Source of the DNA: a virus
Lineage: Duplodnaviria; Caudoviricetes
IMG/VR virus record: IMGVR_UViG_3300017911_000967
Location: 32,942-96,941 of that record
Direction: 5' to 3' (one strand)
DNA length: 64,000 nt
Below the pieces are notes generated by a model. That model was not told the origin of the DNA and did no database searches. It worked only from the letters and a program-made list of their open reading frames with translations. Of the stretch, positions 14,801-30,724 are shown one piece after another. Position numbers and translations under genes: made by a program. How positions within the stretch are numbered: position 1 is the first letter of the stretch; every line of letters starts with the position of its first letter.

Positions 14801-16731
14801 TCATGCGATCACGTTTAGTCTCGTTCAAGGCAGAAGGTCTTCGTCCTAACGCTAAGGTATGGGCATACTTCGGTAACCGCAATGTATCCGAATGGTGTCG
14901 ACCAACGAACAGGTTTGTTGAGTTCTCAACTACAGATTCGGAAGTAGGATCAACTCAGTCTTCAGCAACAGGCATCGTTGGTTCTAGTCAGTTGACTACT
15001 AACGACAGAGGTGAAGTTGTTGGTGAGTTCTTGATCCCGAATACGGATGCATTAAGATTCCGAACAGGAACACAAGACTTCCAGATCTTAGACATCAATG
15101 TAGACACCACGTCTGCAAGACTAACAACAGAACAGGCGTCAGAGTCATTAACAAACTCTACTGCACCTTACACATCGACTGGAACTATTGAGTCCATCCA
15201 AAGAACTATCCGAACCACGCGTGTACCACAACGTGTGCGTGGTCGCCGCGATCCACTTGCGCAGTCTTTCTTTGTTGATCCAACGGAAAATCCAAACGGT
15301 ATCTTCTTAACTAAGGTGCGTGTCTATGTTCAAAGCAAAGACTCTACCATTCCAATGCAGGTACAAATTCGTCCAGTAGAGAACGGCATACCGACAACCA
15401 CTATTGTACCAGGCTCGGTGAAGTTTGTCAAACCAGATGACATCACACTTGCACCTAACACGGACATTGAAAGTATTCGGTCTAATGGAACCACCATTGA
15501 GTTCGATGAACCAGTATATCTAACCGCAGGTGAAGAGTATGCGATTGTCCTACTTGCCGAGTCAGTTGACTATAACGTATACGTAGCACAAACCTACGAG
15601 ACGATTATTGGTGGCAATGAAGGTAAGGTATCGAAACAACCTTCACTTGGTTCACTGTTCATGTCACAGAGTGGATCAACGTGGACACCAGATCAGACCA
15701 AAGATCTAATGTTCGAACTAGAACGCGCAGAGTTTGAATCGTCAGGAAATGTATATTTAATCAATGGAAGTCTACCTTTAGTATCACTGGAAGACTCTCC
15801 GTTCAGCACAACAGAATCGTCTAATCGAGTTTTGGTCCGACATGAAGGTCACGGTTTTACTAGATTTGATCAGGTAACATTCTCTGGGTCTACCGCAGTT
15901 GGTGGCCTTGATTTAAATTCAACATTTACTATTGACAATGTTACATCTACAGGGTATACTATCGTAACTGGTCAGACGAATACTGCTACATCAACTTCTG
16001 TTGGTGGTGGTAGTTCGGTCGTTGCAACTCAGAATGTCATGTTCGACGAATTCACTCCTCAAGTTTCATCTATTATGCCTAACGGAACATCTCTATCCGC
16101 TACATCGGATATGTGCAAAGGTGCATCGTATGGGGGAGATGGTGATAACGGTCGTAATCCAAATTCAAGTGGTCTTTCGTATAATAGAAATATTTCTCAA
16201 GAAGTCGTATTGAATGAAGTTAATACGGGATCACACCCATCTGTTGTCGCAACTACAGATAACAAACAGAGTCACAGTATTGAATTCAACTTGTCTCTTC
16301 AAACTTCTGACAGTAAAGTCTCTCCTTTAATTGATCTTCAACGAGTCTCCATGTTGGCTCTAGAAAATGTTATTGGTGATCAGTCAGAAGCACAACACAT
16401 CACAAGACCTACAACCATTGACGAAAGCTCGATTGGACTCAAAGTCATCTTTGGTGCAAACCGTCCAACCGGATCTTCGTTTGAAGTCTATGTTAAGACT
16501 TCTGCTGATGATGATTCGTTATCCGATGCACCTTGGACCCTAGTATCGATTGATAGTCCGGTACCTTCAGACGACAATGTATCGGTTTTCCGTGAGTATG
16601 AGTATACGCAAGAAAATCCAGATACCGTTGATTCCTTCAGTGCGTTCCAAGTAAAGGTTGTTATGAAATCAAGTAACTCATCTAAGTCTCCACGCATTCG
16701 AGACTTGCGTGTTATCGCACTGGTAACATAA
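11809..16731 (+). CDS. Large virion structural protein (VrlC/DUF4815-like)
   Basis: YHRVLFNAGRALQARELIELQTIIQ, PGAHRYKI, RYTMKDI..IENR, DPLAQSF, SLFMSQ...WT..Q..DL.F, PRIRDLRVIAL. Confidence 0.85.
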   Translation: MTTDNNIDKPQPVTDTTFKTDYRDYYDEKDGYHRVLFNAGRALQARELIELQTIIQEEISRFGGNVFKEGALVKPGGVTVDNKVEFVRFTETSVVPSDIQVLTHDESGIKAKVLSVDTESKTVYVQYTDTLNAGGGETAPRFSVGDRLEAGQVEASGLSTWAYFASGDYFVQGHFVHAVGGELIIDPEGTSYLDADGRSIPVDIGFKIEEVIFTEGEDPDLFDNQGEYPNSTSPGAHRYKIILTPSTREQSDENNFVFVARVLNGEITREVTSHDGYNRINKLLAQRTKEESGDYVVQDFTAVFEDKNDQELILDVSEGIAYVDGYRLDIGRTEITVPRAQTSNKVDLESVPASYGNWVYLDLSGTNGLGDIANFGKLDLIGADGDPTNPIGSTFLRGIEKDQSGFRAYIFNTVTNTDVSFSQVHEMVTPDGSSVLKVRRESDSGATIYSTSDNNLLFPLSQSSPVANTLNKISYTQQVIKSGESPEDDGTISILDGRETQSWILSKDGVGIQEGEEYVPTLSGTYENLDTNATYSILYYQTTEPSNKSKTLKDTTINVTSGYDLISSNVVDGYEVENVFLTVGDQSSDITFMYEMDNGQRDNFYDFVRFKLKPGNTIPTGATVSVTFKYFEHSTTGGFFSAASYGTGAEGQLSYDEIPTYTMSNGNTVSLRDVIDFRPSRNSDGSFKVMPLPQNASSLVLDDVEYYLPRIDVLVANVVDSYGDVGFGELQVLQGQPSTSPRPPQIPTGSLPLYVYQLNAYTFDSTDLTSEKQSHKRYTMKDIAKIENRLEGLYELTTLSLLESSTQSLDVLDAQGNPRTKAGFIADNFSTFNFSDVNNVDYLASVETTNGELQPSFRENLVRLKYDESQGNSSRTGDYATLPYTHASFITQDVATSTMNINPFAVITQEGHITLSPSSDEWVETQTLPPIMQTVVRRTPRNPRDLRADVGFNDMWNGIANFNRNMLAEPNLFEIQPLARSVQEFVGQRVAGVEVIPFMRSRLVSFKAEGLRPNAKVWAYFGNRNVSEWCRPTNRFVEFSTTDSEVGSTQSSATGIVGSSQLTTNDRGEVVGEFLIPNTDALRFRTGTQDFQILDINVDTTSARLTTEQASESLTNSTAPYTSTGTIESIQRTIRTTRVPQRVRGRRDPLAQSFFVDPTENPNGIFLTKVRVYVQSKDSTIPMQVQIRPVENGIPTTTIVPGSVKFVKPDDITLAPNTDIESIRSNGTTIEFDEPVYLTAGEEYAIVLLAESVDYNVYVAQTYETIIGGNEGKVSKQPSLGSLFMSQSGSTWTPDQTKDLMFELERAEFESSGNVYLINGSLPLVSLEDSPFSTTESSNRVLVRHEGHGFTRFDQVTFSGSTAVGGLDLNSTFTIDNVTSTGYTIVTGQTNTATSTSVGGGSSVVATQNVMFDEFTPQVSSIMPNGTSLSATSDMCKGASYGGDGDNGRNPNSSGLSYNRNISQEVVLNEVNTGSHPSVVATTDNKQSHSIEFNLSLQTSDSKVSPLIDLQRVSMLALENVIGDQSEAQHITRPTTIDESSIGLKVIFGANRPTGSSFEVYVKTSADDDSLSDAPWTLVSIDSPVPSDDNVSVFREYEYTQENPDTVDSFSAFQVKVVMKSSNSSKSPRIRDLRVIALVT

Positions 16732-19900: not shown

Positions 19901-20203
19901 AACACACAAGGTGCCCTGAGTCGAGACGATGGTGGCGCGACACGCATCGATGGTGGGTTTATCTCTGCAAATACCATCGAAGTAGAATCTATAAAAACCG
20001 ACGATCTAGATGCTAAGATTGCCACTGTCGCACAAACTTTAGTTGTCGGTGGTGCTGCAACGGACATAGATACTACGCAAGCGGACGGTTACTCATCATC
20101 GGGTGAGAGAATGGTTCTCACCGGAGAAAACATTAGAATTTATGATGCAAGCAGCACAGATGAATCTACAGGACTTCGCGTCAAACTAGGGAAACTTGTA
20201 TAA
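16958..20203 (+). CDS. Tail fibre protein with ~8 tandem ~95-110 aa repeats
   Basis: N-terminal FDKINENF and YHGMFAHVH motifs; repeats of the form Y.RS..P..P.GG.FDF...W...WS.P; C-terminal RIYDA...LRVKLGKL. Confidence 0.8.
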   Translation: MSHGDDTIQIINLADNINAAFDKINENFELLDAGLDRDEVIALITEHLNDNPHFSLQEIRDHIEGATLDMSGNKVLFGNVYPSVSDLPDASAYHGMFAHVHDTGAAYFAHGGQWVELANKSDVGTGSSDVESLEDLDDVQFSSPVLVGHVLKWDGTKWTNLEDSSGGGGGPTNPGENGTSFYQATIYQRSPTQPSTPSGGTFDFPSATLTPPSDWSGTIPEGDDDLWACNFLFRDYLSQQGTITATDWSEPYKLGGIVDANNGDSYAQVSIFKRSTTSLTAPTGGSFDFGSQVLTPPSEWSIVPPLPQDENGNPTGDLYVSSGIATNAGLSDPTGKDTDINWTNPVKTSTGLDGQDGKSIFEKAVYRKVPKPDGWKVGDDIPTPSKPEGGFFDFGNEVFGGDPLDSVAGESGVWFEGIPEGSGDVWSSTYAFSVIGDTGTDYAVVDGWSEPTLGIIESVSTYSKALYTRSATPPNPIANSNGVVYNFTEDRFEKIGDTDVVAGVTNGTWYEEPPELDLDNPLNLYEVRTTASLIGYLGVDNTLTFSAPKLVMNYAVDAEDGFSFVQLSVYKWSNTSLDNNAGKPSGGSFDFSTKTFTQPSGWSKTIPENPDEDDANMRLYVSSGIASTQPNSGDSTDPIVVDDVIVWSTPDVTTAGGSGRDGRSTFRAVIVRRSDQNPPSSPTGGFVNFGANAATKTQAEAAAANVTSSGTLTIAGNSLVPPDGWYDTVAEIPSSQAPDGKIWAVEYQFATDGDTGVEPGGTWSAPYEDHNNGEDGYSTFSASVYKRSANKPPASGGKWGPVGATYSFTNDRVENLSGTGWTEDPQESNEDLDPLWLCRATATTKGLTGTDATLTWSEPVKVSTDGQPGEVDPTTIPQQENGYVYYLVGDGTSDGPDTPTATSFNFIGTGTVGTDGTFTGLTNNWSISPPQDTNLTGSLWAARFFAVEDTAGSRTATTASGNLLFSPPFKSYSFDGLVTFTNTQGALSRDDGGATRIDGGFISANTIEVESIKTDDLDAKIATVAQTLVVGGAATDIDTTQADGYSSSGERMVLTGENIRIYDASSTDESTGLRVKLGKLV

Positions 20204-20571
20204 TGTCTTACGGAATAGAAGTCTACAATTCAGAAGGCACAAAGATTGTAAGTCCTAATAGTAGTTTAGGGACCATTATTGCATATGGAAGGGTTCCGGC
20301 CGATCGATCGAGATATGAGGCAATTCTTGAGGGAAACCCAAATGCGGGTAATATAATGAATGGAAATGCGGTATACATATGGGGTGAGTTGGTAGATATC
20401 CCAGTTTTTGTCCCTAACTTTATAAACGATTCTTTACATGAAATAATCATCGTTTGTCCCTCTAACATCATTGTTGGAAATGGTTCAATTGTAAGTAAAT
20501 CAAATGGAAGTTTTGTTCTTAGAAGAAATGATAAATTCGATGCGGCTTGGTATGTAGTGAGGCGAGGATGA
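20203..20571 (+). CDS. Tail fibre-associated small protein (MSYGIE..N.G family)
   Basis: Start overlaps the fibre stop; MSYGIEVYNSEG N-terminus shared with the next gene. Confidence 0.65.
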   Translation: MSYGIEVYNSEGTKIVSPNSSLGTIIAYGRVPADRSRYEAILEGNPNAGNIMNGNAVYIWGELVDIPVFVPNFINDSLHEIIIVCPSNIIVGNGSIVSKSNGSFVLRRNDKFDAAWYVVRRG

Positions 20572-22004
20572 GTTACGGAATTGAAATAAGAAATTCTGAC
20601 GGTAATATTATTATCGAAGATGGTTTTAAAAACTTTCAAGTAGTTGCCTTCGGCACTACCAGTGCTGGTTCGGTTATACCATATGGAAATAATTTTTTGA
20701 CCGGAGGACTCATTTTCGGTAAACCTTCTGGTGTAAACCAAAATGATTTTTATGGATGGCATATTGCAGGAAATAGTACTACTGGAAATTTTGTCGGCGT
20801 CGGTCGTGGATCTGTAAACCTAGTTGATCCAGTTCAAGAAAGACCTAACCCATTTAGTGGAAATACAACTACTTATGATTATACAACAACTCCTATAACT
20901 CTACCTAATGTTGGTAAGATGGCACCCAGTGTAGATTGGGTATATGTGGAACCTTCGGCAACTTCACCCAATCCATCTGATTATGGATTAGAGGTTTATG
21001 CGGCCGACGGAACCGTATCGTACACTAGTACAGTAGAAAGCGAGTTTGATCTAACCTCCGTTGTAACTATTACTAACTTCGATCCACCATATTACGGACA
21101 GGATGATTTTCACGCTACTGGATTCTTCAGCGCAAGTGACTCAGCATTTAATTATTATATGTGTCTAAGTAATCTTGTTTCGTTTCCTGTTACTACAATT
21201 CCTGGCCAGTATGGATGGGTGAATTCTGGAAGATGGACGGCTGGTGGAATAACATTTTACCAACCAACATGGAATATTGCGAACTTCACTAGTGTAGGAC
21301 AACAAATTCTTATAGGTAAATATGTAGGAACTTCTTCTGGCGCTGAATCTGGCGGAAACGAAACAGAGACACCGAATCTTGCGCCAACTTATATTTCTGG
21401 GGTTGCATCCTCTTATACATTAAATACTAATGGTACCACAATCACTCCGATTTTCAGTGATCCTGAAGGTGGTCAAATAACCATTACTTTTTACACTTCT
21501 GGAACTTTAGGTGGAGCATCAATTGAACTAATCAATAATGGAACACAGATTAGAATAGTTCCAGGCGATAACGATGCAAGTTTTTCTCTAACTATAGTTG
21601 GAAGTGATGGGACTCAAGGAACATCAAGGGTTGCAGCAATTAACTATACCGTACCGGCGTCATCAAACAATCCGCCAGTGATTGCTACAAACAGTGTAAG
21701 CAGTTCTTACTCATTGCAGGGAACTTCTGCAACAACAACCATATCACCTCTTGTTATAGAACCAGATGGTGACTCTTATACTCTAAGCGCTTCTGTCACG
21801 GGAAGTAGTACAGGAATGTCTGTGACTGTGAATCAAAATAATACTATTACTGTATCATGGAATGGTGCTATGGTCGGTCTGTCATTCACACTAAATATAA
21901 CCGCAGTGGATCAAAACGGTGCGGTTAGCAGTCCAGTATCTACAATTATAATTTGGGAGTCGGGTGGAGGTTTTCCTCCCATAGATCCAGGCGGATTGTT
22001 CTAA
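20568..22004 (+). CDS. Putative fibre-tip/receptor-binding protein with two C-terminal Ig/cadherin-like repeats
   Basis: MSYGIEIRNSDG start at 20568; internal YGLEVYAADG; N.AP/NNPP...DPEG/EPDG...F.L.I...D repeats; AT-rich. Confidence 0.6.
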   Translation: MSYGIEIRNSDGNIIIEDGFKNFQVVAFGTTSAGSVIPYGNNFLTGGLIFGKPSGVNQNDFYGWHIAGNSTTGNFVGVGRGSVNLVDPVQERPNPFSGNTTTYDYTTTPITLPNVGKMAPSVDWVYVEPSATSPNPSDYGLEVYAADGTVSYTSTVESEFDLTSVVTITNFDPPYYGQDDFHATGFFSASDSAFNYYMCLSNLVSFPVTTIPGQYGWVNSGRWTAGGITFYQPTWNIANFTSVGQQILIGKYVGTSSGAESGGNETETPNLAPTYISGVASSYTLNTNGTTITPIFSDPEGGQITITFYTSGTLGGASIELINNGTQIRIVPGDNDASFSLTIVGSDGTQGTSRVAAINYTVPASSNNPPVIATNSVSSSYSLQGTSATTTISPLVIEPDGDSYTLSASVTGSSTGMSVTVNQNNTITVSWNGAMVGLSFTLNITAVDQNGAVSSPVSTIIIWESGGGFPPIDPGGLF

Positions 22005-22038
22005 TCTAGTTTAATTTAAAAAATCAAAGGGAAATAAA

Positions 22039-22491
22039 ATGAAAATTTTGGCATATGTAGATCAAGGAACAGGACAGATAGTCTCAGTATCTAGCGTCTC
22101 AGTTAGTGCCCCTAGTCATGAAGATGGAAATATAGTAGATGGTTTCCTTGTTAAAGATATTAGTTTCGCAGGAACTTCTTGGCAAACTTTCGGAAAAGAT
22201 CATTGGTGGGACGGTGGAGAATGGGTAGAAAGGGGCGAACAACCAACCCAATATCATTCATGGTTAAATGGTGAGTGGGTGTTTGTTCAATCTTCATTTG
22301 AAACCTCAGTAAGAAACATTAGAGATCAACTACTTCAACAGTCGGACTGGACTCAGATTCCAGACGCCCCACTATCGACAGATATGAAGAACGCATGGGC
22401 GGGATACCGTCAAGAGTTGCGTGATATTACTTCAAACTTAGAAGGTTTGACTAGTTTAGAAGACGTAAACTGGCCAGAACCACCACAGTAA
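22039..22491 (+). CDS. Tail fibre assembly chaperone
   Basis: C-terminal VRNIRDQLLQQSDWTQIPDAPL...WAGYRQELRDIT...VNWPEPP. Confidence 0.85.
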   Translation: MKILAYVDQGTGQIVSVSSVSVSAPSHEDGNIVDGFLVKDISFAGTSWQTFGKDHWWDGGEWVERGEQPTQYHSWLNGEWVFVQSSFETSVRNIRDQLLQQSDWTQIPDAPLSTDMKNAWAGYRQELRDITSNLEGLTSLEDVNWPEPPQ

Positions 22492-22518
22492 TAGTTGACA
22501 CAAATATTTTTACAAAAG

Positions 22519-22549
22519 TGCGGTTACTTCGGTTCCCGCATTTTTTTTT
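22519..22549 (+). terminator. Rho-independent terminator
   Basis: TGCGG..AC-TTCG-GT..CCGCA hairpin followed by T9. Confidence 0.8.
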
Positions 22550-22551
22550 CT

Positions 22552-22559
22552 TATAAATA
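22552..22559 (+). promoter_or_regulatory. T4-type late promoter TATAAATA
   Basis: Exact consensus upstream of the 1602-aa repeat protein. Confidence 0.8.
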
Positions 22560-22610
22560 ACTGTTGTCATTAACCAATAAATCCTTTTAACTTAAAAGAG
22601 AGACGATATC

Positions 22611-25600
22611 GTGTCAGCATCTAGTATACCACTAAAAATTCAAAATGCTAATGGTGACCTACAAGAATTCACTCCATCGGACGAATTATTTCTTTCGTAT
22701 GCAGTGGGACAAGCATTAGTTGCGGCCGCATCTAATGACGTTGGTAATATCAGTTTGACTGAAGGCCAATCAATCGGTTCATTTGTAGATTCTTACTACA
22801 ATGAAATATCTGGCACCCACCCTGCTTCACAGATCACGGGTGCCTCAGTGACCACCACTCTGAAGCAAGTGAGTGGCCCAGCAGATGAATCCGGTGCAGA
22901 CTTTGTCCGTCCAGTAGGTTATTACGACGTTGATCCAAACCCAGGCTTCTACGAAATGGTAGACGGGGACTTGGACAACCTAGCAGGTCGTGTTCTGTCT
23001 AACTTAGTACAGAACGACTATATCGGTACTTTCAAACTGTCCGCTACCCAACCAAGTGCAGACTATACAAAGTTCATTGACTCTGTATTCTCCGACACTC
23101 ACGGTAATGGTGCAGGTGGTACCGTAGTAACAAACTACCACATTTGGATGCGTACTTCTATGACGGCGGTTGCTCCAGTTCGTCCAGTAGCGACAAGCTA
23201 CGACGGTTCTGGTTTCAACGGTCTACGTGAAATGACAGATGCCCAGATCCAGTACACACTAGGTCAACGCATCAAGTCACTTCGTGCTACTTCCGGAGCG
23301 ATTGGTTCATACCAACTACGTTCAACAGCACAGGGCGCACCAACAGTCCCAGGCACATGGGTGTCTGTAGGCACTGCACAGAACACACGTCGTACACCAG
23401 TTGACGTTGCATACGCAAGAACTCGCGTATCTTCATACAACCGTGCACGTGTTTCTGCATACACTCGTACTCGTACATCTTCATATACGCGTAACAGTGT
23501 CAGTACATTTACTCGCACATTCGTAGGAAACTACGTCGGTGCATATTCACGTGACTTTGTAGGCAACTACTCACGTGACTTTGTTGGGAACTACTCACGT
23601 ACTCGCCCATCATCGTACTCAGGTACATACGCACGTACTCGCGTATCATCGTATTCACGTACTCGCCTAACTGCGTTTACTGGATACTTCGCGGGAACTT
23701 ACTCACGTGCTCGTGTTTCGGTTTACACTCGTAACCGCGTCACACCATTCACTGGTACATTCTCACGTAACCGTACTTCATCGTACACTCGTGGCCGTGT
23801 ATCATCTTACGTAGGCACTTACGCTCGCACACGTGTATCTTCATACTCAGCAGATTACACACGTAACCGTGTATCAACATATTCAGGAACTTATGCGGGA
23901 ACATACTCCCGTCTACGTGTTTCTGCGTATGCTGGAACATACACGCGCAACCGTGTTTCTTCTTATGCTGGAACATACACACGCACACGCGTATCTGCAT
24001 ATGCGACAGACTTTACCCGCGTCCGTGAACAGAACTTCGCAGGGACTTACACTGGTTACTATACTGGCGTATTCTCTCGTGCTCGTGTATCAACTTATAC
24101 GCGTAACCGTGTAACAGGTTTCGCAGGTAACTTCATCGGAAACTACTCTCGCAACTTCCAAGGTAACTATTCACGTAACTTCGTGGGTAACTACTCTCGT
24201 GGATTTGCTGGTAACTTCGTAGGTAACTACTCTCGCGTATCAACACGTACATCAACTCGCACACGTTACAGTGCTTACGCTCGTACACGCATCACTAACT
24301 ACGTTGGTGACTTTGCTCGTGATCGCGTCACTAACTTTGCGGGTAACTTCGTAGGAAACTACGCTCGCACCTTCGTAGGTAACTACGGTGGTAACTATAT
24401 CGGAAACTACGCTCGTGACTTCGTTGGAAACTACGTTGGTAACTACGCTCGTGCATATGTAGGTAACTACTCTCGCGGATTCGTAGGTAACTACGGTCGT
24501 AACTTCCTTGGAAACTTTGTCGGCAACTACAGCCGCAACTTCCTTGGTGACTTCGTCGGAAACTACGCTCGTGGTTTCGTCGGCGACTTCGTTGGAAATT
24601 TCGTAGGTAACTATGCACGTACTTCAACTCGTACATCTACTCGTACTCGTTACAGTGCATACGCTCGTACTCGTGCGACAAACTATACAAGAACTCGTGG
24701 TTCTTCTTACGCTCGTACTCGTGTCACTAACTACGTTGGTAACTTCACGCGCACATCTACTCGTAGCAGACCATCTACGTTCTCTTACGCACGTACTCTA
24801 TACTACGCAGGTGACTTCGTAGGTAACTATGGTCGTACTCGCGTAACAAACTACACTCGTGCTTCAGCGGTAGGTGTAACCTATACAGGTAACTACACAC
24901 GTAACCTATACTACGTCGGTAACTATGCCCGTGCATTCGCAGGAGATTTCGTAGGTAACTATGCTCGTAACCGTGCGTTCTCATACGTAGGTAACTACGC
25001 TCGTAACCGTGCGTTCTCATACGCAGGTAACTACTCACGTACTCGTGTAACAAACTTTGCAGGGAACTTCGTAGGCAACTACGCTCGTAACTTTGTGGGT
25101 AATTATAGTCGACAAGCGGGATTCTCTCGTAACTATGCTGGTAACTATTCTCGTAACTTTACTCGGGCCCGTTCGTTCTCATTCGCAGGTAACTACACAC
25201 GTACTGTTACATCAACTCGAACTTCTACTGGTACCACATGGGTCAATTTGCCAAACGGATCGACAGGCCCTACCAGCGCTGGCCATACTTACATTTACTA
25301 TAATGAAGATAGAGATCGATGGATCGGTAAGATAAATGGTCAGTGGTTATACTCGAACTATTCCGGAAATAGATTCTACTACTTTGGTTCGACGCCAGGA
25401 GCTATCGGAACAACGTTCTCGACAGTAGCTTATAACGGGTCTCCGGCCGGATTCTGGCGAGTAGGTGTTTCCTATTATGATACGAACGATGATAGAGATT
25501 ATCACTATATTCAGCAACAAAGCACGAATTCCTACACCGGAAACTTTGTAGGTAACTTAACATACACGCGCACCCGTGCTGGTACCTATACTGGTAACTA

Positions 25601-27419
25601 CTCTCGCGCATATGTACGTTGGCGCAGTCAACAATATACACGTACTCAGAACTATTCAAGAACTCGAGCTGCGGCTTACACACGTGATCGAGTCACTAAC
25701 TTCGCAGGTAACTTCGGTGGTACGTATACGCGTACTCGTGCTGGTAACTACACTGGTAACTACGCACGTACTCGTGCTGGTAACTACACTGGTAACTACG
25801 CTCGCACGTCAACACGTACACGTTACTCTGCATACGCAAGAACTCGCGTTGCGACAGGTACTTACACGCGTAACCGCGCTGCGACACTATACTACACTGG
25901 TGACTTTGTAGGTAACTTCGCAGGTGCATACACACGCACATCAACACGTACATCTACTAGGCCTGGTTACTACACACGTACACTAACTTACGCAGGTAAC
26001 TACGTAGGTAACTATACGACAACGTTCACTGGCGACTTCGTCGGTAACTATGCGCGTAACTTTGTGGGTGACTATGTTGGTAACTTCGTAGGTAACTATG
26101 CGCGTGGATTTGCTGGTAACTTTGCTGGTAACTTTGTAGGTGAATATGCACGTACTCGTGTAACGAACTACACTCGTACTCGTAACTCTGCGTACACACG
26201 TAACCGCACACAGAACTTTGCGAACTCTTACGCTCGCACACGTGAAACAAACTTCACTGGTTACTACACACGCAACCGTGCATCCGCATACGCTCGTACT
26301 CGTTACAGCGCATACGCTCGCACACGTGTAACTAACTACGTAGGTGACTTCACACGCGATTCAACCCGCACATCTACTCGTAACCGTGTTCCGACATACA
26401 CTCGTGATCGTGTAACTAACTTCGCTGGTAACTTCGTAGGAAACTACGCAACAACGTTTACCGGAGACTTCGTTGGTAACTACGCACGTGGATTTGCTGG
26501 TGAATATGCTGGTAACTTTACTGGTAACTATGCTCGTACTTCAACGCGCACTCGTTACTCTGCATACGCACGTACTCGTGTATCTGCATACGTCCGCAAC
26601 CGTGGATCATCATACACCCGTGACCGTGTAACTAACTTTGCTGGTGACTTCGTAGGTAACTACGCTCGCACCTTCTCTGGTCAGTACACACGTCAGTTCG
26701 TTGGTGAGTATGTTGGTGATTACGTAGGAACGTTCGCAGGTAACTACGTTGGTAACTTCACTCGTGGATTCGGTGGAAACTACGTCGGTAACTATGCACG
26801 TGGATTTGCTGGTAACTACGTAGGAAACTATAACCGTAGTTTCTTAGGTGAGTACACTGGTGCTTACTCTGGTACTTACTCTCGTGGATTTGCGGGTAAC
26901 TATGTAGGTAACTACAACCGTGGGTTCGTTGGTGAGTACACTGGCGCTTACAACCGTACATTCACAGGTAACTACTCTCGTGACTTCTCCGGTCAGTACA
27001 CACGCGACTTTGCTGGTGACTTCGTAGGTAACTACAGTCGTCAGTTCGCAGGTGAGTACACTGGTGCTTATGCGCGTGACTTCGTAGGTAACTTCGTGGG
27101 TAACTACAACCGTGGTTTCGTTGGTGAGTACACTGGTGCTTACTCTCGTGACTTCGTAGGTAACTACTCTCGTGTCCGTGTATCTGCATACGCACGTATC
27201 AGAACGTCTTCTTACTCAGGAGCATACACACGTGACCGTGTTTCTTCTTACGTAGGTGACTTTACTGGTAACTATACTCGTAACTTTGGTGGTAACTACA
27301 CCCGTGACTTTGCTGGAAACTACGCACGTAGCTTCGTCGGTAACTACATCGGTGCAACCATCTCTGATACACAGACCCACGTTACTGATACATATACATT
27401 ATATGTAAGGGTTGCATAA
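22611..27419 (+). CDS. Giant tetrapeptide-repeat structural protein; predicted self-complementary antiparallel beta-hairpin fibre
   Basis: GTG start after a late promoter; ~270-aa base domain, arm 1 (res 269-872), ~100-aa tip, arm 2 (res 976-1579), short C-terminal strand; units xRxR, xSxY, xGNY, xRxF. Confidence 0.85.
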   Translation: MSASSIPLKIQNANGDLQEFTPSDELFLSYAVGQALVAAASNDVGNISLTEGQSIGSFVDSYYNEISGTHPASQITGASVTTTLKQVSGPADESGADFVRPVGYYDVDPNPGFYEMVDGDLDNLAGRVLSNLVQNDYIGTFKLSATQPSADYTKFIDSVFSDTHGNGAGGTVVTNYHIWMRTSMTAVAPVRPVATSYDGSGFNGLREMTDAQIQYTLGQRIKSLRATSGAIGSYQLRSTAQGAPTVPGTWVSVGTAQNTRRTPVDVAYARTRVSSYNRARVSAYTRTRTSSYTRNSVSTFTRTFVGNYVGAYSRDFVGNYSRDFVGNYSRTRPSSYSGTYARTRVSSYSRTRLTAFTGYFAGTYSRARVSVYTRNRVTPFTGTFSRNRTSSYTRGRVSSYVGTYARTRVSSYSADYTRNRVSTYSGTYAGTYSRLRVSAYAGTYTRNRVSSYAGTYTRTRVSAYATDFTRVREQNFAGTYTGYYTGVFSRARVSTYTRNRVTGFAGNFIGNYSRNFQGNYSRNFVGNYSRGFAGNFVGNYSRVSTRTSTRTRYSAYARTRITNYVGDFARDRVTNFAGNFVGNYARTFVGNYGGNYIGNYARDFVGNYVGNYARAYVGNYSRGFVGNYGRNFLGNFVGNYSRNFLGDFVGNYARGFVGDFVGNFVGNYARTSTRTSTRTRYSAYARTRATNYTRTRGSSYARTRVTNYVGNFTRTSTRSRPSTFSYARTLYYAGDFVGNYGRTRVTNYTRASAVGVTYTGNYTRNLYYVGNYARAFAGDFVGNYARNRAFSYVGNYARNRAFSYAGNYSRTRVTNFAGNFVGNYARNFVGNYSRQAGFSRNYAGNYSRNFTRARSFSFAGNYTRTVTSTRTSTGTTWVNLPNGSTGPTSAGHTYIYYNEDRDRWIGKINGQWLYSNYSGNRFYYFGSTPGAIGTTFSTVAYNGSPAGFWRVGVSYYDTNDDRDYHYIQQQSTNSYTGNFVGNLTYTRTRAGTYTGNYSRAYVRWRSQQYTRTQNYSRTRAAAYTRDRVTNFAGNFGGTYTRTRAGNYTGNYARTRAGNYTGNYARTSTRTRYSAYARTRVATGTYTRNRAATLYYTGDFVGNFAGAYTRTSTRTSTRPGYYTRTLTYAGNYVGNYTTTFTGDFVGNYARNFVGDYVGNFVGNYARGFAGNFAGNFVGEYARTRVTNYTRTRNSAYTRNRTQNFANSYARTRETNFTGYYTRNRASAYARTRYSAYARTRVTNYVGDFTRDSTRTSTRNRVPTYTRDRVTNFAGNFVGNYATTFTGDFVGNYARGFAGEYAGNFTGNYARTSTRTRYSAYARTRVSAYVRNRGSSYTRDRVTNFAGDFVGNYARTFSGQYTRQFVGEYVGDYVGTFAGNYVGNFTRGFGGNYVGNYARGFAGNYVGNYNRSFLGEYTGAYSGTYSRGFAGNYVGNYNRGFVGEYTGAYNRTFTGNYSRDFSGQYTRDFAGDFVGNYSRQFAGEYTGAYARDFVGNFVGNYNRGFVGEYTGAYSRDFVGNYSRVRVSAYARIRTSSYSGAYTRDRVSSYVGDFTGNYTRNFGGNYTRDFAGNYARSFVGNYIGATISDTQTHVTDTYTLYVRVA
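23415..25226 (+). repeat. Hairpin arm 1: 4-residue-period repeats
   Basis: ARTR VSSY NRAR VSAY ... VGNY ... TRTS; 604 codons. Confidence 0.9.
25536..27347 (+). repeat. Hairpin arm 2: 4-residue-period repeats complementary to arm 1
   Basis: TGNF VGNL ... ARSF VGNY; 604 codons. Confidence 0.9.
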
Positions 27420-27440
27420 GCGACCCTTCTATGTTATAAT
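27412..27440 (+). promoter_or_regulatory. Putative sigma70-type promoter TTGCAT-N17-TATAAT (extended -10 TGn)
   Basis: Spacing and extended -10 read directly from the sequence. Confidence 0.5.
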
Positions 27441-27455
27441 AGAAGTCTGAATACA

Positions 27456-27480
27456 GGTGGGTCTTCGGACCCACTTTATT
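27456..27480 (+). terminator. UUCG hairpin / probable terminator
   Basis: GTGGGTC-TTCG-GACCCAC followed by TTTATT. Confidence 0.7.
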
Positions 27481-27526
27481 AGTCATATACATAGATTTGA
27501 ATTGAACCCTTTTGGAGAATGAGTAA

Positions 27527-27988
27527 ATGAGTTATAGACGTTGGATGGACAACGCTTTTTGGGAAACAGAAGAGAAGAAAGAACTAAACTGTATCCTAGA
27601 AATGGAAGATGATGTGGGTCGTGTCACCCGTCAACAGATGTTGTTGGCAAGACATGATCGTGATGGAAATCCTAACGAGTTGTTTGCGGAAGTCGTGGAC
27701 GCACTTGGTGAAGAGTTGATCGATAAGGAAACTACCGATCGAGTCGAACGCAAAGCTGCGGAGGCGGAAGAAGAGAAACAACGTGAGTTAGAACATCAAA
27801 AGGCAAGGAAGCTTGAGAAACTGTTCAACTACAAACTAGAAGCGTTTGAGGTTGAAGAGATCAAGAACTCTAAGAACCGCAAGTTGAAGGCAAAATTGCG
27901 TCGTGCAAAATCAAAGATTGAAGTAGATATGTACTCAATCATGATTCTACAAGACCAACTAGAGGCCGAGACAGATGGAAAAGAGTAA
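27527..27988 (+). CDS. Hypothetical acidic helical protein (candidate fibre chaperone)
   Basis: GGAG upstream, 153 aa, charged helical C-half; function inferred from position only. Confidence 0.6.
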   Translation: MSYRRWMDNAFWETEEKKELNCILEMEDDVGRVTRQQMLLARHDRDGNPNELFAEVVDALGEELIDKETTDRVERKAAEAEEEKQRELEHQKARKLEKLFNYKLEAFEVEEIKNSKNRKLKAKLRRAKSKIEVDMYSIMILQDQLEAETDGKE

Positions 27989-28712
27989 AGGGTTTATTAT
28001 CGTTGCGTCAAAGAAGCGCAACTTTTATTTGTACGCAATCAATCTTGCAGAGTCTCTCAGGGACTACTATGAACCAGAAGAGGAATGCAAGATCTGTTTG
28101 GTGACTGAGGAACGATTCCTTGATGACCGTGGTCGAGATGTCGCAGACGATATTCTCTTATGTGACGATCACTACCGCGCTAAGTTATGGGGTATGGCGA
28201 AATCGCCGTATGACCTAACGATGTATATCGATGCTGATATGGAAGTAGAACACGAAGACATCTGTAAAGTTTGGGATGAAATGAAGGACCATGATGTGGT
28301 CTTTACTGCTTTGACAGATGATCGTGACTACATATATGCAGAACGTGACTTTGACACTCCAGAGGGTGTTTCTAAGTTCACACTATGCGGTGCAGTATGT
28401 TTATATGATATGTCCAAACCGATTGTGCGTGAATTCATGAATGATTGGTGGGACTTGACATTCAGACAGATGAATGACACTTGGTGGCCAGACGGGTATG
28501 CGGACAGTCTCAAATCTTGGGACCAGTTCTCACTCTGGTGGTTGACTGAGAAAGAAGAAAAGTATAAGGATCTCAAAGTTGGAATCTTTGATGACGACTT
28601 GAGATGGAACTACTACAACGCACTTAATTGGGCAATAACAAAACCAGAAACAGGGCCAGTGATTATCCGTCACTTCTCTGCTGGTCTTAATAAGGATACA
28701 CCAATCGTATGA
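27975..28712 (+). CDS. GT-A glycosyltransferase (GT8-like/nucleotide-diphospho-sugar transferase)
   Basis: AINLAESLR, K...MAKSPYDLTMYIDAD (DxD), WDQFSL, RWN motifs. Confidence 0.78.
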   Translation: MEKSKGFIIVASKKRNFYLYAINLAESLRDYYEPEEECKICLVTEERFLDDRGRDVADDILLCDDHYRAKLWGMAKSPYDLTMYIDADMEVEHEDICKVWDEMKDHDVVFTALTDDRDYIYAERDFDTPEGVSKFTLCGAVCLYDMSKPIVREFMNDWWDLTFRQMNDTWWPDGYADSLKSWDQFSLWWLTEKEEKYKDLKVGIFDDDLRWNYYNALNWAITKPETGPVIIRHFSAGLNKDTPIV

Positions 28713-29416
28713 CACAGTTAAACGACCAATATCTAAAGCACGTCGAAGTTAAGAACCCTGAGTTGCTTGCGATTCTGGACAACTACGCTGGACTACCGAA
28801 GATTCCTGGCTTTGCAGAGAACTGTCACTGCACTTCTCAGGAACGTATTCGTCAGCGTAACTGGTACGTTGGACCAAAGTACATGCAAGAGATTGTAGAT
28901 GAGGGAACGCAACACGAAGGTTTCCCAGATGAGATGGTAGGTTATAACTTTAAACTATCAGATCGCGCTCACCAGATGTTCGAGTCAGATGCAGATCCAA
29001 TCTTCAAGCGTGACATGACGCACATGTTGTCAGATTTAAACGACAAGATGATGAACTTCCTGTCAGTCAAGCACAATGCGCTTGCAGCGGTATACCCGCC
29101 AGGCGGTTTCATTGCATGGCACAACAACGCTAACGCGCCAGGATTCAATCTAATCTTCTCTTACTCAGAGAGTGGTTCAGGTTGGTTCGACTACATCCAT
29201 CCGGAAACTAAAGAAGTTATCCGTTGTCAAGACAAGCCAGGTCAGTGGACTTGCAAGGCAGCATACTTCGGACACTACGGAGAAGAAGAGAAACTAATGT
29301 ATCACGCTGCATCTTCAGAAGATGATTGGCGCGTAACAGTTTCTTACGTCTTCGACTGGTCTGAGACTTCAGAAGAATTCCGTGAGATGGTCTTAGAAGA
29401 CATCGCTTCAGAATAA
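28709..29416 (+). CDS. 2OG-Fe(II) oxygenase-like (DSBH) protein, paralog of 51798-52442
   Basis: YPPGGFIAWHNN...MYHAA...RVTVSY. Confidence 0.7.
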   Translation: MTQLNDQYLKHVEVKNPELLAILDNYAGLPKIPGFAENCHCTSQERIRQRNWYVGPKYMQEIVDEGTQHEGFPDEMVGYNFKLSDRAHQMFESDADPIFKRDMTHMLSDLNDKMMNFLSVKHNALAAVYPPGGFIAWHNNANAPGFNLIFSYSESGSGWFDYIHPETKEVIRCQDKPGQWTCKAAYFGHYGEEEKLMYHAASSEDDWRVTVSYVFDWSETSEEFREMVLEDIASE

Positions 29417-29442
29417 AACAAAATATCTCGCACCCTAAGTTG

Positions 29443-29450
29443 TATAAATA
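29443..29450 (+). promoter_or_regulatory. T4-type late promoter TATAAATA
   Basis: Exact consensus. Confidence 0.8.
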
Positions 29451-29478
29451 GACACAGAACGTTTATACACTTAGGGTC

Positions 29479-29838
29479 TTGATGACTATGGCAACTTACG
29501 AAGACTTCACAATTGATCAGGGTGCAGACCTAGCTCTACAGATAGAGTTAGTGAATCCGGACGGATCTAAGAAAGATCTTACTGGTTATACTGCCTATGC
29601 GAAGATGAAGAAGACGTATAGAAGTGAGGAGTCAATAGACTTCACTGCCGTGATTCCCGATCCTTCACTCGAAGGTATCGTCACACTATCCCTTACTAAT
29701 TTACAAACCGACGCTCTATCCACTCGTGGTAGATATGTCTATGATGTTGAAATTGCTTTCGTCGATCATGAAGGTCACACCATTATAGAAAGAATACTAG
29801 AAGGTAAGATAAAAGTCAACCCTTCTGTCACGAGGTAA
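29479..29838 (+). CDS. Ig-like virion protein (BppU N-terminal-like)
   Basis: IDQGAD...DLTGYTAYAKMKK...GIVTLSLT..QT..L..GRYVYDVEI...RILEGKIKVNPSVTR; true start may be ATG 29488. Confidence 0.75.
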   Translation: MMTMATYEDFTIDQGADLALQIELVNPDGSKKDLTGYTAYAKMKKTYRSEESIDFTAVIPDPSLEGIVTLSLTNLQTDALSTRGRYVYDVEIAFVDHEGHTIIERILEGKIKVNPSVTR

Positions 29839-29842
29839 CGAC

Positions 29843-30724
29843 ATGCCGATAAGAAGAATAGGTGGAACAACAGGCGTAGCATCCATAAGTGGTTTTGGTT
29901 CTGGAACCAAAGTCAAACGTGTTACTGTCGGTAGACCTATCAGTAATGTCGTACAGAATATCGGTGCGAACATCAAGACGTTTGATGGACTTGGTGATAT
30001 TCCCAGTATTGAAGAGTTAAAACTGGGCGAGATCGGTATAAATACTCAAGACGGCAAACTCTATATCAAACGTGAGTATGATGGTGGAGTTCAAACCATT
30101 GTGGAGATTGGCGCGGTAGGTGAAGGAAATCTATCTGCGACAACCACGTTCAACGCATACATCTATACCTCTGACGGAACACTAGAGGTTATTACGGGTG
30201 CAGACGATAAGGGAAACATACTACAGTATGACCCAGATCCGAATACACCATCTCGAATTCAAGTATATCTCAACGGTGTCTTACTCCACCAAGGAATGGA
30301 CTACGTTGCTGATGATGGGGTTTCAATAACCCTAACCCACGTAGTAGACGAAGAGCAAGTTATCCAAGTCGCTGCGTATAACTCAACAGGCGTTTCTTTT
30401 GGAAACGACTTAATCCTAGATGATCATTTTGCCTTTGTTGTAGGCACAAATGAAGAAACCCGACTCTATCATAATGGAACCGACACCGTCCTTAAACACT
30501 TGGGATTCAACGAAAGTCGGTTCAAGATTCAATATGAGAATGATGATAGATTAGTTATGAACGCTTCAGGTGTTCAGTTAAAGGGAAACTACACCCTCAA
30601 CGGACAACCCGTTGCAAGCCAAGTAGAAGTAGATGCTCTTAATGCTCGAATCGATGGTCTCGATTCTGACTTACAGGAAGTGACTGAACTACTACAAGAA
30701 CTACTTCAGTTCCGACAATCATAA
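29843..30724 (+). CDS. Virion fibre/adaptor protein
   Basis: LKLGEIGINTQDGKLYIK (Mtd-N-like), IQVYLNGVLL..G.DY domain, C-terminal coiled coil. Confidence 0.65.
   Translation: MPIRRIGGTTGVASISGFGSGTKVKRVTVGRPISNVVQNIGANIKTFDGLGDIPSIEELKLGEIGINTQDGKLYIKREYDGGVQTIVEIGAVGEGNLSATTTFNAYIYTSDGTLEVITGADDKGNILQYDPDPNTPSRIQVYLNGVLLHQGMDYVADDGVSITLTHVVDEEQVIQVAAYNSTGVSFGNDLILDDHFAFVVGTNEETRLYHNGTDTVLKHLGFNESRFKIQYENDDRLVMNASGVQLKGNYTLNGQPVASQVEVDALNARIDGLDSDLQEVTELLQELLQFRQS

What the first reader, a model, noticed from the sequence alone, without database searches (positions are those of the whole stretch)
22611..23414. The 1300-residue hairpin is an insertion into a loop of a three-repeat base domain
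Seen: the N-terminal ~270 aa contain three related segments (PLK..GDLQEF; RPV..GFYEM; RPV..GLREM), each followed by a helix-like stretch and G(N/T/S)(I/F/Y)xL. Repeat 2 ends VFSDTH-(short loop)-TNYHIWMR. Repeat 3 runs TAQNTR-(whole hairpin)-DTYTLYVR, so the extreme C-terminus supplies the missing strand. Inference: both termini meet at the virion-anchored base, as a hairpin requires, and the fibre arose by elongating a pre-existing beta-hairpin loop.
Basis: partly seen in the sequence, partly recalled or inferred. Interest (0 to 1): 0.75.

Follow-up and report, generated by a model that had tools for sequence, protein, structure and literature searches.

The report
Fold-back fibre rooted in three-repeat base
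A marine T4-like phage encodes a 1602-residue fibre protein whose start and very end appear to fold together into one small three-part base domain. The 1300 residues in between would then be a giant outgrowth of a single hairpin loop, a fibre design with no described equivalent at this scale.

Summary

- **Gene:** the ORF at 22611-27419 (+) encodes 1602 aa. It lies in the baseplate/fibre module of a T4-like phage.
- **Three repeats:** residues 1-261 hold three homologous repeats. Profile-profile P is 1.5e-4 to 3e-7, and scores are 27-39 against 9-10 for column shuffles.
- **Family:** there are at least 329 cluster representatives, with no Pfam, PHROG or PDB match. All intact members keep the N-domain and an almost invariant C-terminal xTYTLYVRxA. 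The insert between them runs from about 93 to 3073 aa. No insert-less member was found.
- **Structure:** AlphaFold2 models of two natural short homologues (397 and 461 aa) give each repeat the same β-β-α-β-β-β pattern. The last strand of repeat 3 comes from the C-terminus (pLDDT 96-98). It runs straight into a two-stranded ribbon.
- **Register:** in the window protein a Gly/Arg mirror code has one best register, i+j = 1847. That is exactly W250 + L1597 of the base domain.
- **Fold:** the base resembles MABP-type β-prisms (Z 5.7-6.9).

First readers noted the same architecture in other genomes of this scan; none was checked.

The parts
22611..27419 (+). Whole gene: 1602-aa fold-back fibre protein (GTG start, stop included)
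   Evidence: Orthologues begin MSASSIPLK or VSASSIPLK, which supports the start.
22626..22886 (+). Base-domain repeat 1 (residues 6-92): β-β-α-β-β-β with a conserved 13-residue β4-β5 loop (xGTHPxSxIT)
   Evidence: hhalign. AF2 secondary structure of homologues.
22905..23168 (+). Base-domain repeat 2 (residues 99-186): same pattern, with a short β4-β5 loop (DTHGNGAGGTV)
23178..23393 (+). Base-domain repeat 3, N-terminal part (residues 190-261): β-β-α-β-β. Strand 4 (GTWVSVGTAQNTRR) runs out of the domain into arm 1.
   Evidence: In the models, E238-263 of P0122 and E250-273 of P0012 are single continuous strands. P244, G248, T249, W250, G254, A256 and T259 are invariant or nearly so.
23394..25226 (+). 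Arm 1 (residues 262-872): period-2/4 Tyr/Phe-Gly/Arg repeats
   Evidence: Aromatic periodicity power is 13-20 at periods 2 and 4, against <0.2 at other periods. Mirror register i+j=1847.
25227..25535 (+). Non-repetitive central knob (residues 873-975). The mirror centre at 923.5 lies inside it.
25536..27365 (+). Arm 2 (residues 976-1585), mirror-complementary to arm 1
   Evidence: At i+j=1847 there are 77 Gly/Arg pairs against 20.6 expected, 78 aromatic:aromatic pairs against 24, and 1 R:R pair against 11.9. The parallel control reaches at most 50.
27366..27416 (+). C-terminal tail (residues 1586-1602, ...DTYTLYVRVA): predicted fifth strand of repeat 3
   Evidence: T1594, Y1595, T1596, L1597, Y1598 and R1600 are at least 90% conserved across 128 sequences. 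The equivalent residues in the homologue models have pLDDT 96-98 and are in a strand. W250+L1597 = 1847, the arm register.

Best explanation
The protein is a fold-back fibre whose two ends form one domain.

**Base domain.** Residues 1-261 are three tandem homologous repeats. Each has the order β1-β2-α-β3-β4-β5, and together they pack as a pseudo-threefold β-prism-like base. In repeats 1 and 2 the β4-β5 hairpin closes with a loop of 13 residues or of 5-8 residues.

**Insertion.** In repeat 3 strand β4 (GTWVSVGTAQNTRR) does not turn back. It continues as arm 1 for about 610 residues, passes through a knob of about 100 residues, and returns as arm 2. Arm 2 is antiparallel to arm 1 and in register with it. 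The chain re-enters the domain as β5 (TYTLYVRVA) at the extreme C-terminus. Topologically the whole fibre of about 1330 residues is an insertion in one β-hairpin loop.

**Arms.** The pairing follows a mirror code: Tyr/Phe faces Tyr/Phe and Gly faces Arg. Fully extended, each arm would span about 200 nm.

**Inferred, not shown.**
- The conserved base is the virion-proximal end, and the variable knob or knobs bind the host.
- Length evolves by paired gain or loss of tetrapeptide units in both arms.
- The oligomeric state is open. I favour a single chain (about 55%), because the base already contains three copies of the unit.
For: 1. **Repeats are homologous.** hhalign P is 1.5e-4, 4e-6 and 3e-7. 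Scores are 27-39 against shuffles of 9-10 +/- 1.6.
2. **Family-wide pattern.** There are 329 representatives at 50% clustering. Of 292 fetched sequences, 204 are intact, and all 204 carry the N-domain and end in xTYTLYVRxA. Insert length among 128 of the intact members is 93-3073 aa, median 462. The phage C48C1 orthologue has 3347 aa with the same two ends.
3. **Two independent AF2 models.** P0122 (397 aa) has pLDDT 80.7, base 92-99, C-terminus 97-98. P0012 (461 aa, window clade) has base 95-98, C-terminus 96-98.
4. **Same pattern in every repeat.** Both models give β-β-α-β-β-β three times. The third repeat's β5 is the C-terminal strand, E368-395 in P0122 and E433-459 in P0012. It lies opposite a continuous β4, E238-263 and E250-273 respectively. 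In P0012 the strand ends give 273+433 = 706 = W250+L456.
5. **Arm register in the window protein.** Gly-Arg and Arg-Gly cross-arm correlations share one sharp peak at i+j=1847 (r 0.41 and 0.42, next best 0.26-0.29). That sum equals W250+L1597, so the arm register extrapolates exactly onto β4/β5 of repeat 3. There are 77 such pairs against 56 at the next register and at most 50 in a parallel control.
6. **Register across the family.** The best mirror register falls at offset 0 or +1 from the W...L anchor in 15 of 87 members, where 0.7 is expected. Several of these members are related.
7. **Fold.** Both models match the same MABP-type β-prisms: 8b6v Z 6.9/6.8, 2qp2 Z 6.9/6.3, 3tow Z 5.9/5.7, with 111-119 residues aligned. 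The next unrelated rows are at Z 2.8 or below. The aligned range runs to the last residue of each model. MABP is a three-repeat β-prism (PMC2881412).
Against: - No model of the window's own protein exists. It is too long at 1602 aa, and the two-chain docking job was unavailable.
- No coordinates are returned, so strand pairing is inferred from DSSP ranges, pLDDT and the aligned ranges.
- The distal arms are modelled at pLDDT below 50 in both models.
- Appending the true C-tail to the repeat-3 profile raises the hhalign score no more than appending 12-mers from arm 2: 41.3 against 40.5-41.0 for repeat 2, and 33.8 against 34.4-35.6 for repeat 1.
- By a crude gap measure, the largest non-repeat domain is off the midpoint by -81 to +171 aa in 13 members. 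Arms are therefore not always equal, and some globular domains must be lateral.
- β-prism Z scores of 6-7 lie in the range the tool calls 'common arrangement'.
- Virion attachment and oligomeric state are untested.
Confidence: 0.75

Rival explanations
1. Strand swap in trans. The arms pair antiparallel between two or more chains rather than within one. The C-terminal strand of one chain then completes repeat 3 of another. The result would be an extended antiparallel dimer or daisy-chain with a base at each end.
For: The mirror code (i+j constant) and the conserved tail fit pairing in trans as well as in cis. AF2 was run on monomers only, so it could not choose.
Against: Short members have Gly/Pro/Asn-rich turn sequences near the middle of an insert of 90-150 aa, for example YGGR in P0155 and NPNA...RGG in P0122. 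A turn needs these; an extended chain does not. AF2 closes the hairpin in cis with high confidence at the base. A fibre with identical bases at both ends has no obvious way to mount on a virion.
Confidence: 0.12
2. Conventional parallel fibre. The N-domain sits at the virion. The chain or chains run outward, and the conserved C-terminal motif lies at the distal tip, for instance as an assembly or chaperone-recognition signal. The termini never meet.
For: Most known phage fibres are parallel trimers with a conserved N-terminus. A tail-fibre assembly chaperone gene (PF16778) lies just upstream at 22039-22491.
Against: This reading does not explain the single mirror register that lands exactly on W250/L1597. 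It does not explain why a parallel register gives no comparable Gly/Arg signal. It does not explain the missing fifth strand of repeat 3, or the AF2 placement of the tail at pLDDT 96-98 in two models.
Confidence: 0.04
3. Same split-domain topology, but assembled as a trimer of hairpins. Three chains would form a six-stranded shaft like the T4 gp37 needle, with three base domains at the root.
For: T4 gp37 is a precedent. Its collar domain D10 is residues 811-881 plus 1010-1026, with the needle D11 between them, in a trimer (PMC6957217). The gene sits in a T4-like fibre module.
Against: The arms have no His and no HxH iron-binding motifs. The base already holds three copies of the unit in one chain, which removes the usual reason to trimerise. 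Only one of the three equivalent hairpins is extended. No multimer prediction could be run.
Confidence: 0.25

Closest known systems
T4 long-tail-fibre tip gp37: collar domain D10 with needle D11
   Same: The base (collar) domain is built from two discontinuous segments, 811-881 and 1010-1026. A fold-back fibre lies between them, so the last ~17 residues return to complete the domain (PMC6957217). It is a T4-type phage fibre. The C-terminal signature looks alike by eye: gp37 ends ...NYIVRLA, gp10 ...YRWIRIA, gp11 ...YHFERTA, and this family ...TLYVRxA.
   Different: gp37 is an obligate homotrimer. Its needle is a short (~130 aa) interwoven shaft held by His-coordinated iron. Here three copies of the base unit sit in one chain and only one hairpin is extended, by 93-3073 aa. 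The arms have no His and use a Gly/Arg-Tyr mirror code instead. No sequence or Pfam Collar match was found.
MABP (MVB12-associated β-prism) domains, especially MPEG1/perforin-2 with its elongated MABP β-hairpin
   Same: It is a type-I β-prism with three internal homologous segments (PMC2881412). These domains are the best structural matches of both models. In MPEG1 one loop of the prism has grown into 'an extraordinary elongated β-hairpin' (PMC6753088). That is the same principle, a prism hairpin elongated into a functional arm.
   Different: Each repeat here carries an extra β-hairpin and a helix. Sequence identity is 5-11% and no Pfam hit was found. Homology is unproven at Z 5.7-6.9. The MPEG1 hairpin is tens of residues long; this one has about 1330. 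The functions differ too: membrane binding in pore-forming proteins, against a phage fibre base.
T4 gp11 (baseplate wedge / short-fibre interface) head domain
   Same: It is the highest non-prism structural match in both models: 1el6_A at Z 2.8/2.7, 48-49 residues aligned, 27/20% identity. The match covers repeat 3 through to the C-terminus. By eye, the gp11 family reads ...GYGxWxxxGxQTxT-(7-aa loop)-PxxLYYFKRIA-COOH. This family reads ...GTWxxxGTAxDT-(fibre)-ETYTLYVRxA-COOH.
   Different: The statistics are weak. hhalign gives P=0.044 against the single gp11 sequence and P=0.062 over 13 columns against the gp11 family profile. HMMER ranks gp11 44th of 1959, mostly shuffles. This is a lead only.
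SMC/Rad50 and flagellin (own knowledge, as analogies)
   Same: The N- and C-terminal segments fold into one base or head domain. A long antiparallel fold-back arm carries a variable or functional apex.
   Different: Their arms are α-helical coiled coils, not a β-ribbon, and the families and functions are unrelated.

Membership tests
MABP-type type-I β-prism | Three homologous internal segments giving pseudo-threefold symmetry | tested here: met
   hhalign between the three repeats gives P 1.5e-4 to 3e-7, with shuffle controls. The secondary-structure pattern is identical in each repeat of two AF2 models.
MABP-type type-I β-prism | Structural superposition on solved MABP domains | tested here: inconclusive
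   VIA-align gives 8b6v Z 6.9/6.8, 2qp2 Z 6.9/6.3, 3tow Z 5.9/5.7 and 6sb1 Z 4.6/4.8, with 111-119 residues aligned at rmsd 3.5-6.0. These are the top rows, well above the rest, but fall below the tool's Z 8 caution line. Foldseek found nothing at E<=0.001.
MABP-type type-I β-prism | Sequence-profile match to the Pfam MABP family | tested here: not met
   hmmscan against Pfam at E<=10 gave no MABP hit for the N-domain or for four short homologues.
T4 collar / gp37 D10-D11 type fold-back fibre | Base domain made of two discontinuous segments that flank a fold-back shaft | tested here: met
   AF2 on two homologues, the mirror register that lands on the domain anchors, and the gp37 domain boundaries from PMC6957217.
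T4 collar / gp37 D10-D11 type fold-back fibre | Sequence membership in Collar (PF07484) or GP11 (PF08677) | tested here: not met
   No Pfam hit. No match to either family in the 97-kb virus record at E<=1. The gp11 profile comparisons gave P=0.044 and P=0.062.
T4 collar / gp37 D10-D11 type fold-back fibre | Homotrimer with His-coordinated metal ions along the shaft | tested here: not met
   There are 0 His and 0 HxH motifs in either arm. The oligomeric state itself could not be tested.
Phage tail fibre / virion fibre (generic) | Encoded in the structural module, with a conserved virion-proximal part and a hypervariable remainder | tested here: met
   The gene lies between gp8-like and gp13-like genes, beside fibre and chaperone genes. 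The N-domain is 68% identical to that of C48C1, while the middle cannot be aligned (1340 against 3070 aa).
Phage tail fibre / virion fibre (generic) | Presence in the virion and its attachment site | not testable with these tools
   No proteomic or EM data exist for this uncultured phage. No paper on phage C48C1 was found.

The most novel reading that the evidence does not exclude
A single polypeptide forms a two-stranded antiparallel β-ribbon about 200 nm long, in effect a protein 'stem-loop'. It is held in register over about 600 residue pairs by a Tyr:Tyr and Gly:Arg cross-strand code. It is rooted in a single-chain pseudo-trimeric β-prism that may descend from the trimeric T4 gp10/gp11/gp37 collar module by triplication. 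This would be a new class of fibrous protein, in which one chain replaces a trimer. Its length would be tuned by paired indels in the two arms.
Probability: 0.4. Interest if true: 0.88.

Novelty: new variant of a known kind. Interest (0 to 1): 0.68.

Why it matters
Phage fibres are taken to be parallel homotrimers. This family would show a different solution, and it is large: at least 329 sequence clusters from marine and aquatic viromes, all unannotated. Here a single chain's two ends form a pseudo-trimeric base, and its fibre is one hyper-extended β-hairpin.

- **Annotation.** Conserved N-domain plus a C-terminal TYTLYVRxA gives a simple rule for recognising hundreds of 'hypothetical' giant genes.
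- **Natural length series.** Inserts from 93 to about 3000 residues offer a way to study how long two-stranded β-ribbons stay in register.
- **Receptor-binding candidates.** The variable apex or lateral knobs are the likely host-binding modules of uncultured T4-like marine phages.
- **Tractable targets.** The short natural members of 362-400 aa suit structure determination.

Tried and rejected
- **ESM Atlas:** both the look-alike search and the 'atlas' fold library were unavailable or busy.
- **Library searches with no useful result:**
  - Foldseek against PDB and BFVD gave no match at E<=0.001.
  - Pfam and PHROGs gave nothing for the protein.
  - PDB sequence searches with the single sequence and with the family profile gave nothing at E<=10.
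  - tblastn against GenBank phages found only phage C48C1.
- **Tail-strand homology test:** the true tail scores no better than arm 12-mers. I therefore drop the claim that sequence alone shows the tail to be 'the missing strand'.
- **Aromatic-phase test** of the arm register against the W...L anchor: rejected as a test. Conserved junctions alone would give a conserved phase. Most of the family sits at phase +1, the window clade at 0.
- **Knob-at-midpoint test** across the family: it failed for the 13 members that had one dominant gap. The method is crude. It shows that equal arms are not universal.
- **Homology to T4 gp11, gp10, gp12 and gp9** by hhalign and HMMER: not significant, kept only as a lead.
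- **Insert-less homologues:** every hit under 360 aa was a contig-end fragment or a frameshifted gene call.
- **Literature:** searches for cyanophage hairpin or repeat fibres and for C48C1 found nothing relevant.
Full report
**What is there.** The window is part of a 96.9-kb IMG/VR virus record. All large genes lie on the + strand. They form a T4-like structural module:
- gp6-like and gp8-like baseplate wedge genes;
- a DUF4815-type giant protein;
- a tail fibre and a fibre-assembly chaperone;
- a gp13-like adaptor, the large terminase and the sheath.

The nearest GenBank phage is C48C1 (Kyanoviridae). The finding lies at the start of ORF 22611..27419, which encodes 1602 aa from a GTG start. 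Its layout is as follows:

| Part | Residues |
|---|---|
| Non-repetitive N-domain | 1-261 |
| Arm 1 (period-2/4 repeats) | 262-872 |
| Non-repetitive knob | 873-975 |
| Arm 2 (period-2/4 repeats) | 976-1585 |
| Tail, ending DTYTLYVRVA | 1586-1602 |

**Observation check.** I cut a 25-sequence family alignment into the three proposed segments and compared the profiles with hhalign:
- R1-R2: P=1.5e-4 over 85 columns.
- R1-R3: P=4e-6.
- R2-R3: P=3e-7.

Column-shuffled targets score 9-10 +/- 1.6 (maximum 14.6), against observed scores of 26.8, 33.5 and 39.1. The three-repeat claim therefore stands. The conserved domain ends at R261, not residue 268.

**The family.**
- An exhaustive HMMER search with the N-domain found 329 cluster representatives at E<=1e-3, 124 of them at E<=1e-30.
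- Two word-based searches added many short members.
- Of 292 sequences fetched, 204 are intact. All 204 carry the N-domain and end in xTYTLYVRxA.
- Nearly invariant positions cluster in repeat 3's fourth strand (P244, G248, T249, W250, G254, A256, T259) and in the tail (T1594-Y1598, R1600).
- Among 128 of the intact members the insert between these anchors runs from 93 to 3073 aa, median 462.
- The syntenic C48C1 protein has 3347 aa, with the same two ends and several extra globular domains.
- Every hit shorter than 360 aa is a contig-end fragment or a frameshifted call. Short inserts exist; insert-less forms were not found.
- The family has no Pfam, PHROG or PDB-sequence match. Only one of 50,697 GenBank phage records holds it.

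**Structure prediction.** The window protein exceeds the 1200-aa limit, and a fused construct cannot be submitted. I therefore folded two natural short homologues, each with a 108-sequence family alignment.

| | P0122 | P0012 |
|---|---|---|
| Length | 397 aa | 461 aa |
| Relation to window | ~36% identity | window clade, 59% identity in the N-domain |
| Mean pLDDT / pTM | 80.7 / 0.72 | 75.7 / 0.67 |
| pLDDT, base blocks | 92-99 | 95-98 |
| pLDDT, last 20 residues | 97-98 | 96-98 |

Both models give the same element order in each repeat, β-β-α-β-β-β. For P0012:
- Repeat 1: E8-10, E17-19, H22-37, E53-63, E77-86.
- Repeat 2: E101-105, E112-115, H118-134, E141-144, E152-163, E169-177.
- Repeat 3: E193-198, E201-207, H210-225, E234-238, E250-273, and then, after the insert, E433-459.

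Repeat 3's fourth strand is thus one continuous strand running out of the domain. Its partner is one continuous strand running back in to the C-terminus. The strand ends give 273+433 = 706 = W250+L456. The distal arms are modelled below pLDDT 50, so the models say nothing reliable about the shaft. No coordinates are returned. Pairing is therefore inferred from the DSSP ranges, the confidence values and the fold-search ranges.

**An independent sequence test of the topology.**
- In the window protein, the correlation between Gly in arm 1 and Arg in arm 2, and the reverse, was scanned over 200 antiparallel registers.
- Both correlations peak at the same single register, i+j=1847 (r=0.41 and 0.42; next best 0.26-0.29).
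- At that register there are 77 Gly/Arg pairs against 20.6 expected, 78 aromatic:aromatic pairs against 24, and one Arg:Arg pair against 11.9.
- The best parallel register gives only 50.
- The number 1847 equals W250+L1597, the invariant Trp of strand 4 plus the Leu of TYTLYVR. The register derived from the arms alone therefore extrapolates exactly onto the two base-domain strands.
- Across the family, the best mirror register lies at offset 0 or +1 from this anchor in 15 of 87 members with enough Gly and Arg to test. Only 0.7 would be expected by chance.
- The nominal binomial P is about 1e-15. It is inflated because some members are close relatives, although most of the 15 carry separate representative ids of the 50% clustering.

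**Fold comparison.**
- Foldseek finds nothing in PDB or BFVD.
- VIA-align, run against 48,161 representative chains, puts the same set on top for both models. These are the β-prism (MABP) domains of Mpf2Ba1 (8b6v, Z 6.9/6.8), Plu-MACPF (2qp2, 6.9/6.3), human MVB12B (3tow, 5.9/5.7) and perforin-2 (6sb1, 4.6/4.8).
- In these matches 111-119 residues align, and the model range always runs to the last residue. Everything else is at Z 2.8 or below.
- MABP was defined as a type-I β-prism with three homologous segments (PMC2881412).
- In MPEG1 one of its loops is 'an extraordinary elongated β-hairpin' (PMC6753088).
- The Z values are below the tool's caution line. I therefore call this a resemblance, not membership.

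**A T4 precedent and a lead.** In T4 gp37 the collar domain D10 consists of residues 811-881 plus 1010-1026, with the needle D11 between them (PMC6957217). That is the same split-base, fold-back topology, but in a trimer.

The next structural match after the prisms is T4 gp11 in both models (Z 2.8/2.7, 48-49 residues, 27/20% identity). It covers repeat 3 through to the C-terminus. By eye, the gp11 family reads GYGxWxxxGxQTxT-loop-PxxLYYFKRIA-COOH, which resembles GTWxxxGTAxDT-fibre-ETYTLYVRxA-COOH.

The statistics do not carry it. hhalign gives P=0.044 and 0.062, and HMMER ranks gp11 44th of 1959, mostly shuffles. This remains a lead.

**How it most likely works.**
- *Shown or well supported:* three homologous repeats; a conserved split base; a mirror-coded antiparallel register continuous with the base strands.
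- *Inferred from the conserved-ends/variable-middle pattern and the gene's position:* the base is the virion-proximal end, and the knob or knobs bind the host.
- *Inferred from paralogy and the length series:* the fibre arose by elongation of repeat 3's β4-β5 loop.
- *Open:* monomer or oligomer. The arms contain no His or Cys, so a gp37-like metal-bound trimeric needle is unlikely. No multimer job could be run.

**What weakens the case.**
- The tail's homology to strand 5 of repeats 1 and 2 cannot be separated from arm-derived controls.
- The largest non-repeat domain is off-centre in several members. C48C1 also has many extra domains in its second half. Arms are therefore not always equal, and some domains must bulge laterally.
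- The phase test was not a valid test.

**Novelty.** No paper, family model or solved structure describing this family was found (and the library searches above). Each principle has a precedent: gp37 D10/D11 for the split base, and the MPEG1 MABP hairpin for the elongated prism loop. The combination does not. It joins a single-chain three-repeat base, one hairpin elongated by up to about 3000 residues, and a Gly/Arg-Tyr mirror code.

First readers of this scan recorded the same reading on other genomes (e1-5881547, e1-5837825, e1-5837837). None of those notes had been followed up.

Noticed in passing
window 27527-29416 (three ORFs of 153, 245 and 235 aa): The three genes just downstream of the fibre gene are conserved in the same order next to a distant family member. 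In L002 (P0122 locus) they are 43%, 50% and 35% identical. L004 (P0025 locus) has genes of similar size further downstream, beside a 2OG-Fe(II) oxygenase gene; their homology was not compared. The middle gene has a weak GT2 hit. This may be a dedicated maturation or modification cassette for the fibre.
   Followed up: partly
P0017 and P0056 (metagenomic fragments of family members): A FG-GAP-like (PF14312) β-propeller segment is inserted in repeat 3, between its first strand and the GFxGLxEM motif. This is a second insertion-tolerant loop in the base domain.
   Followed up: no
P0123, P0142, P0169, P0170, P0173: In some family members the base domain starts only at residue ~170-250, after an N-terminal extension. 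P0169 also continues for ~25 residues after the TYTLYVR motif.
   Followed up: no
L001:2222-12265 (phage C48C1 orthologue, 3347 aa): It contains an exact tandem duplication of ~75 residues (KTRHRSYLYYSTDTSTNQQFF...NFSGQY, twice). At least five extra globular domains interrupt the second half of the repeat region, so its two arms cannot be simple mirror images.
   Followed up: no
P0005, P0014, P0213, P0218, P0273, P0292: Many metagenomic gene calls of this family end in out-of-frame sequence inside the tetrapeptide-repeat region. The cause could be assembly errors in the repeats or real frameshift variation; it was not resolved.
   Followed up: no
window 20000-30000 against OQ984149: Megablast finds no nucleotide match over the fibre gene body. 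It finds 78% identity from window ~27155 onward, covering the last ~265 nt of the fibre gene and the downstream genes. The arms and knob are a hypervariable island between conserved flanks.
   Followed up: partly
window residues 64-76 of the protein (nt ~22800-22840): The β4-β5 loop of repeat 1 carries a nearly invariant xGTHPxSxIT motif (G68 is at least 90% conserved across 128 sequences). It may be a functional or docking site on the base domain.
   Followed up: no
window 11809-16731 and L002/L004: A giant DUF4815/phrog_358-type protein sits directly after the gp8-like gene in the window and in L004. A shorter DUF4815 gene also lies upstream of the fibre gene in L002. It appears to be part of a conserved neighbourhood.
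   Followed up: no
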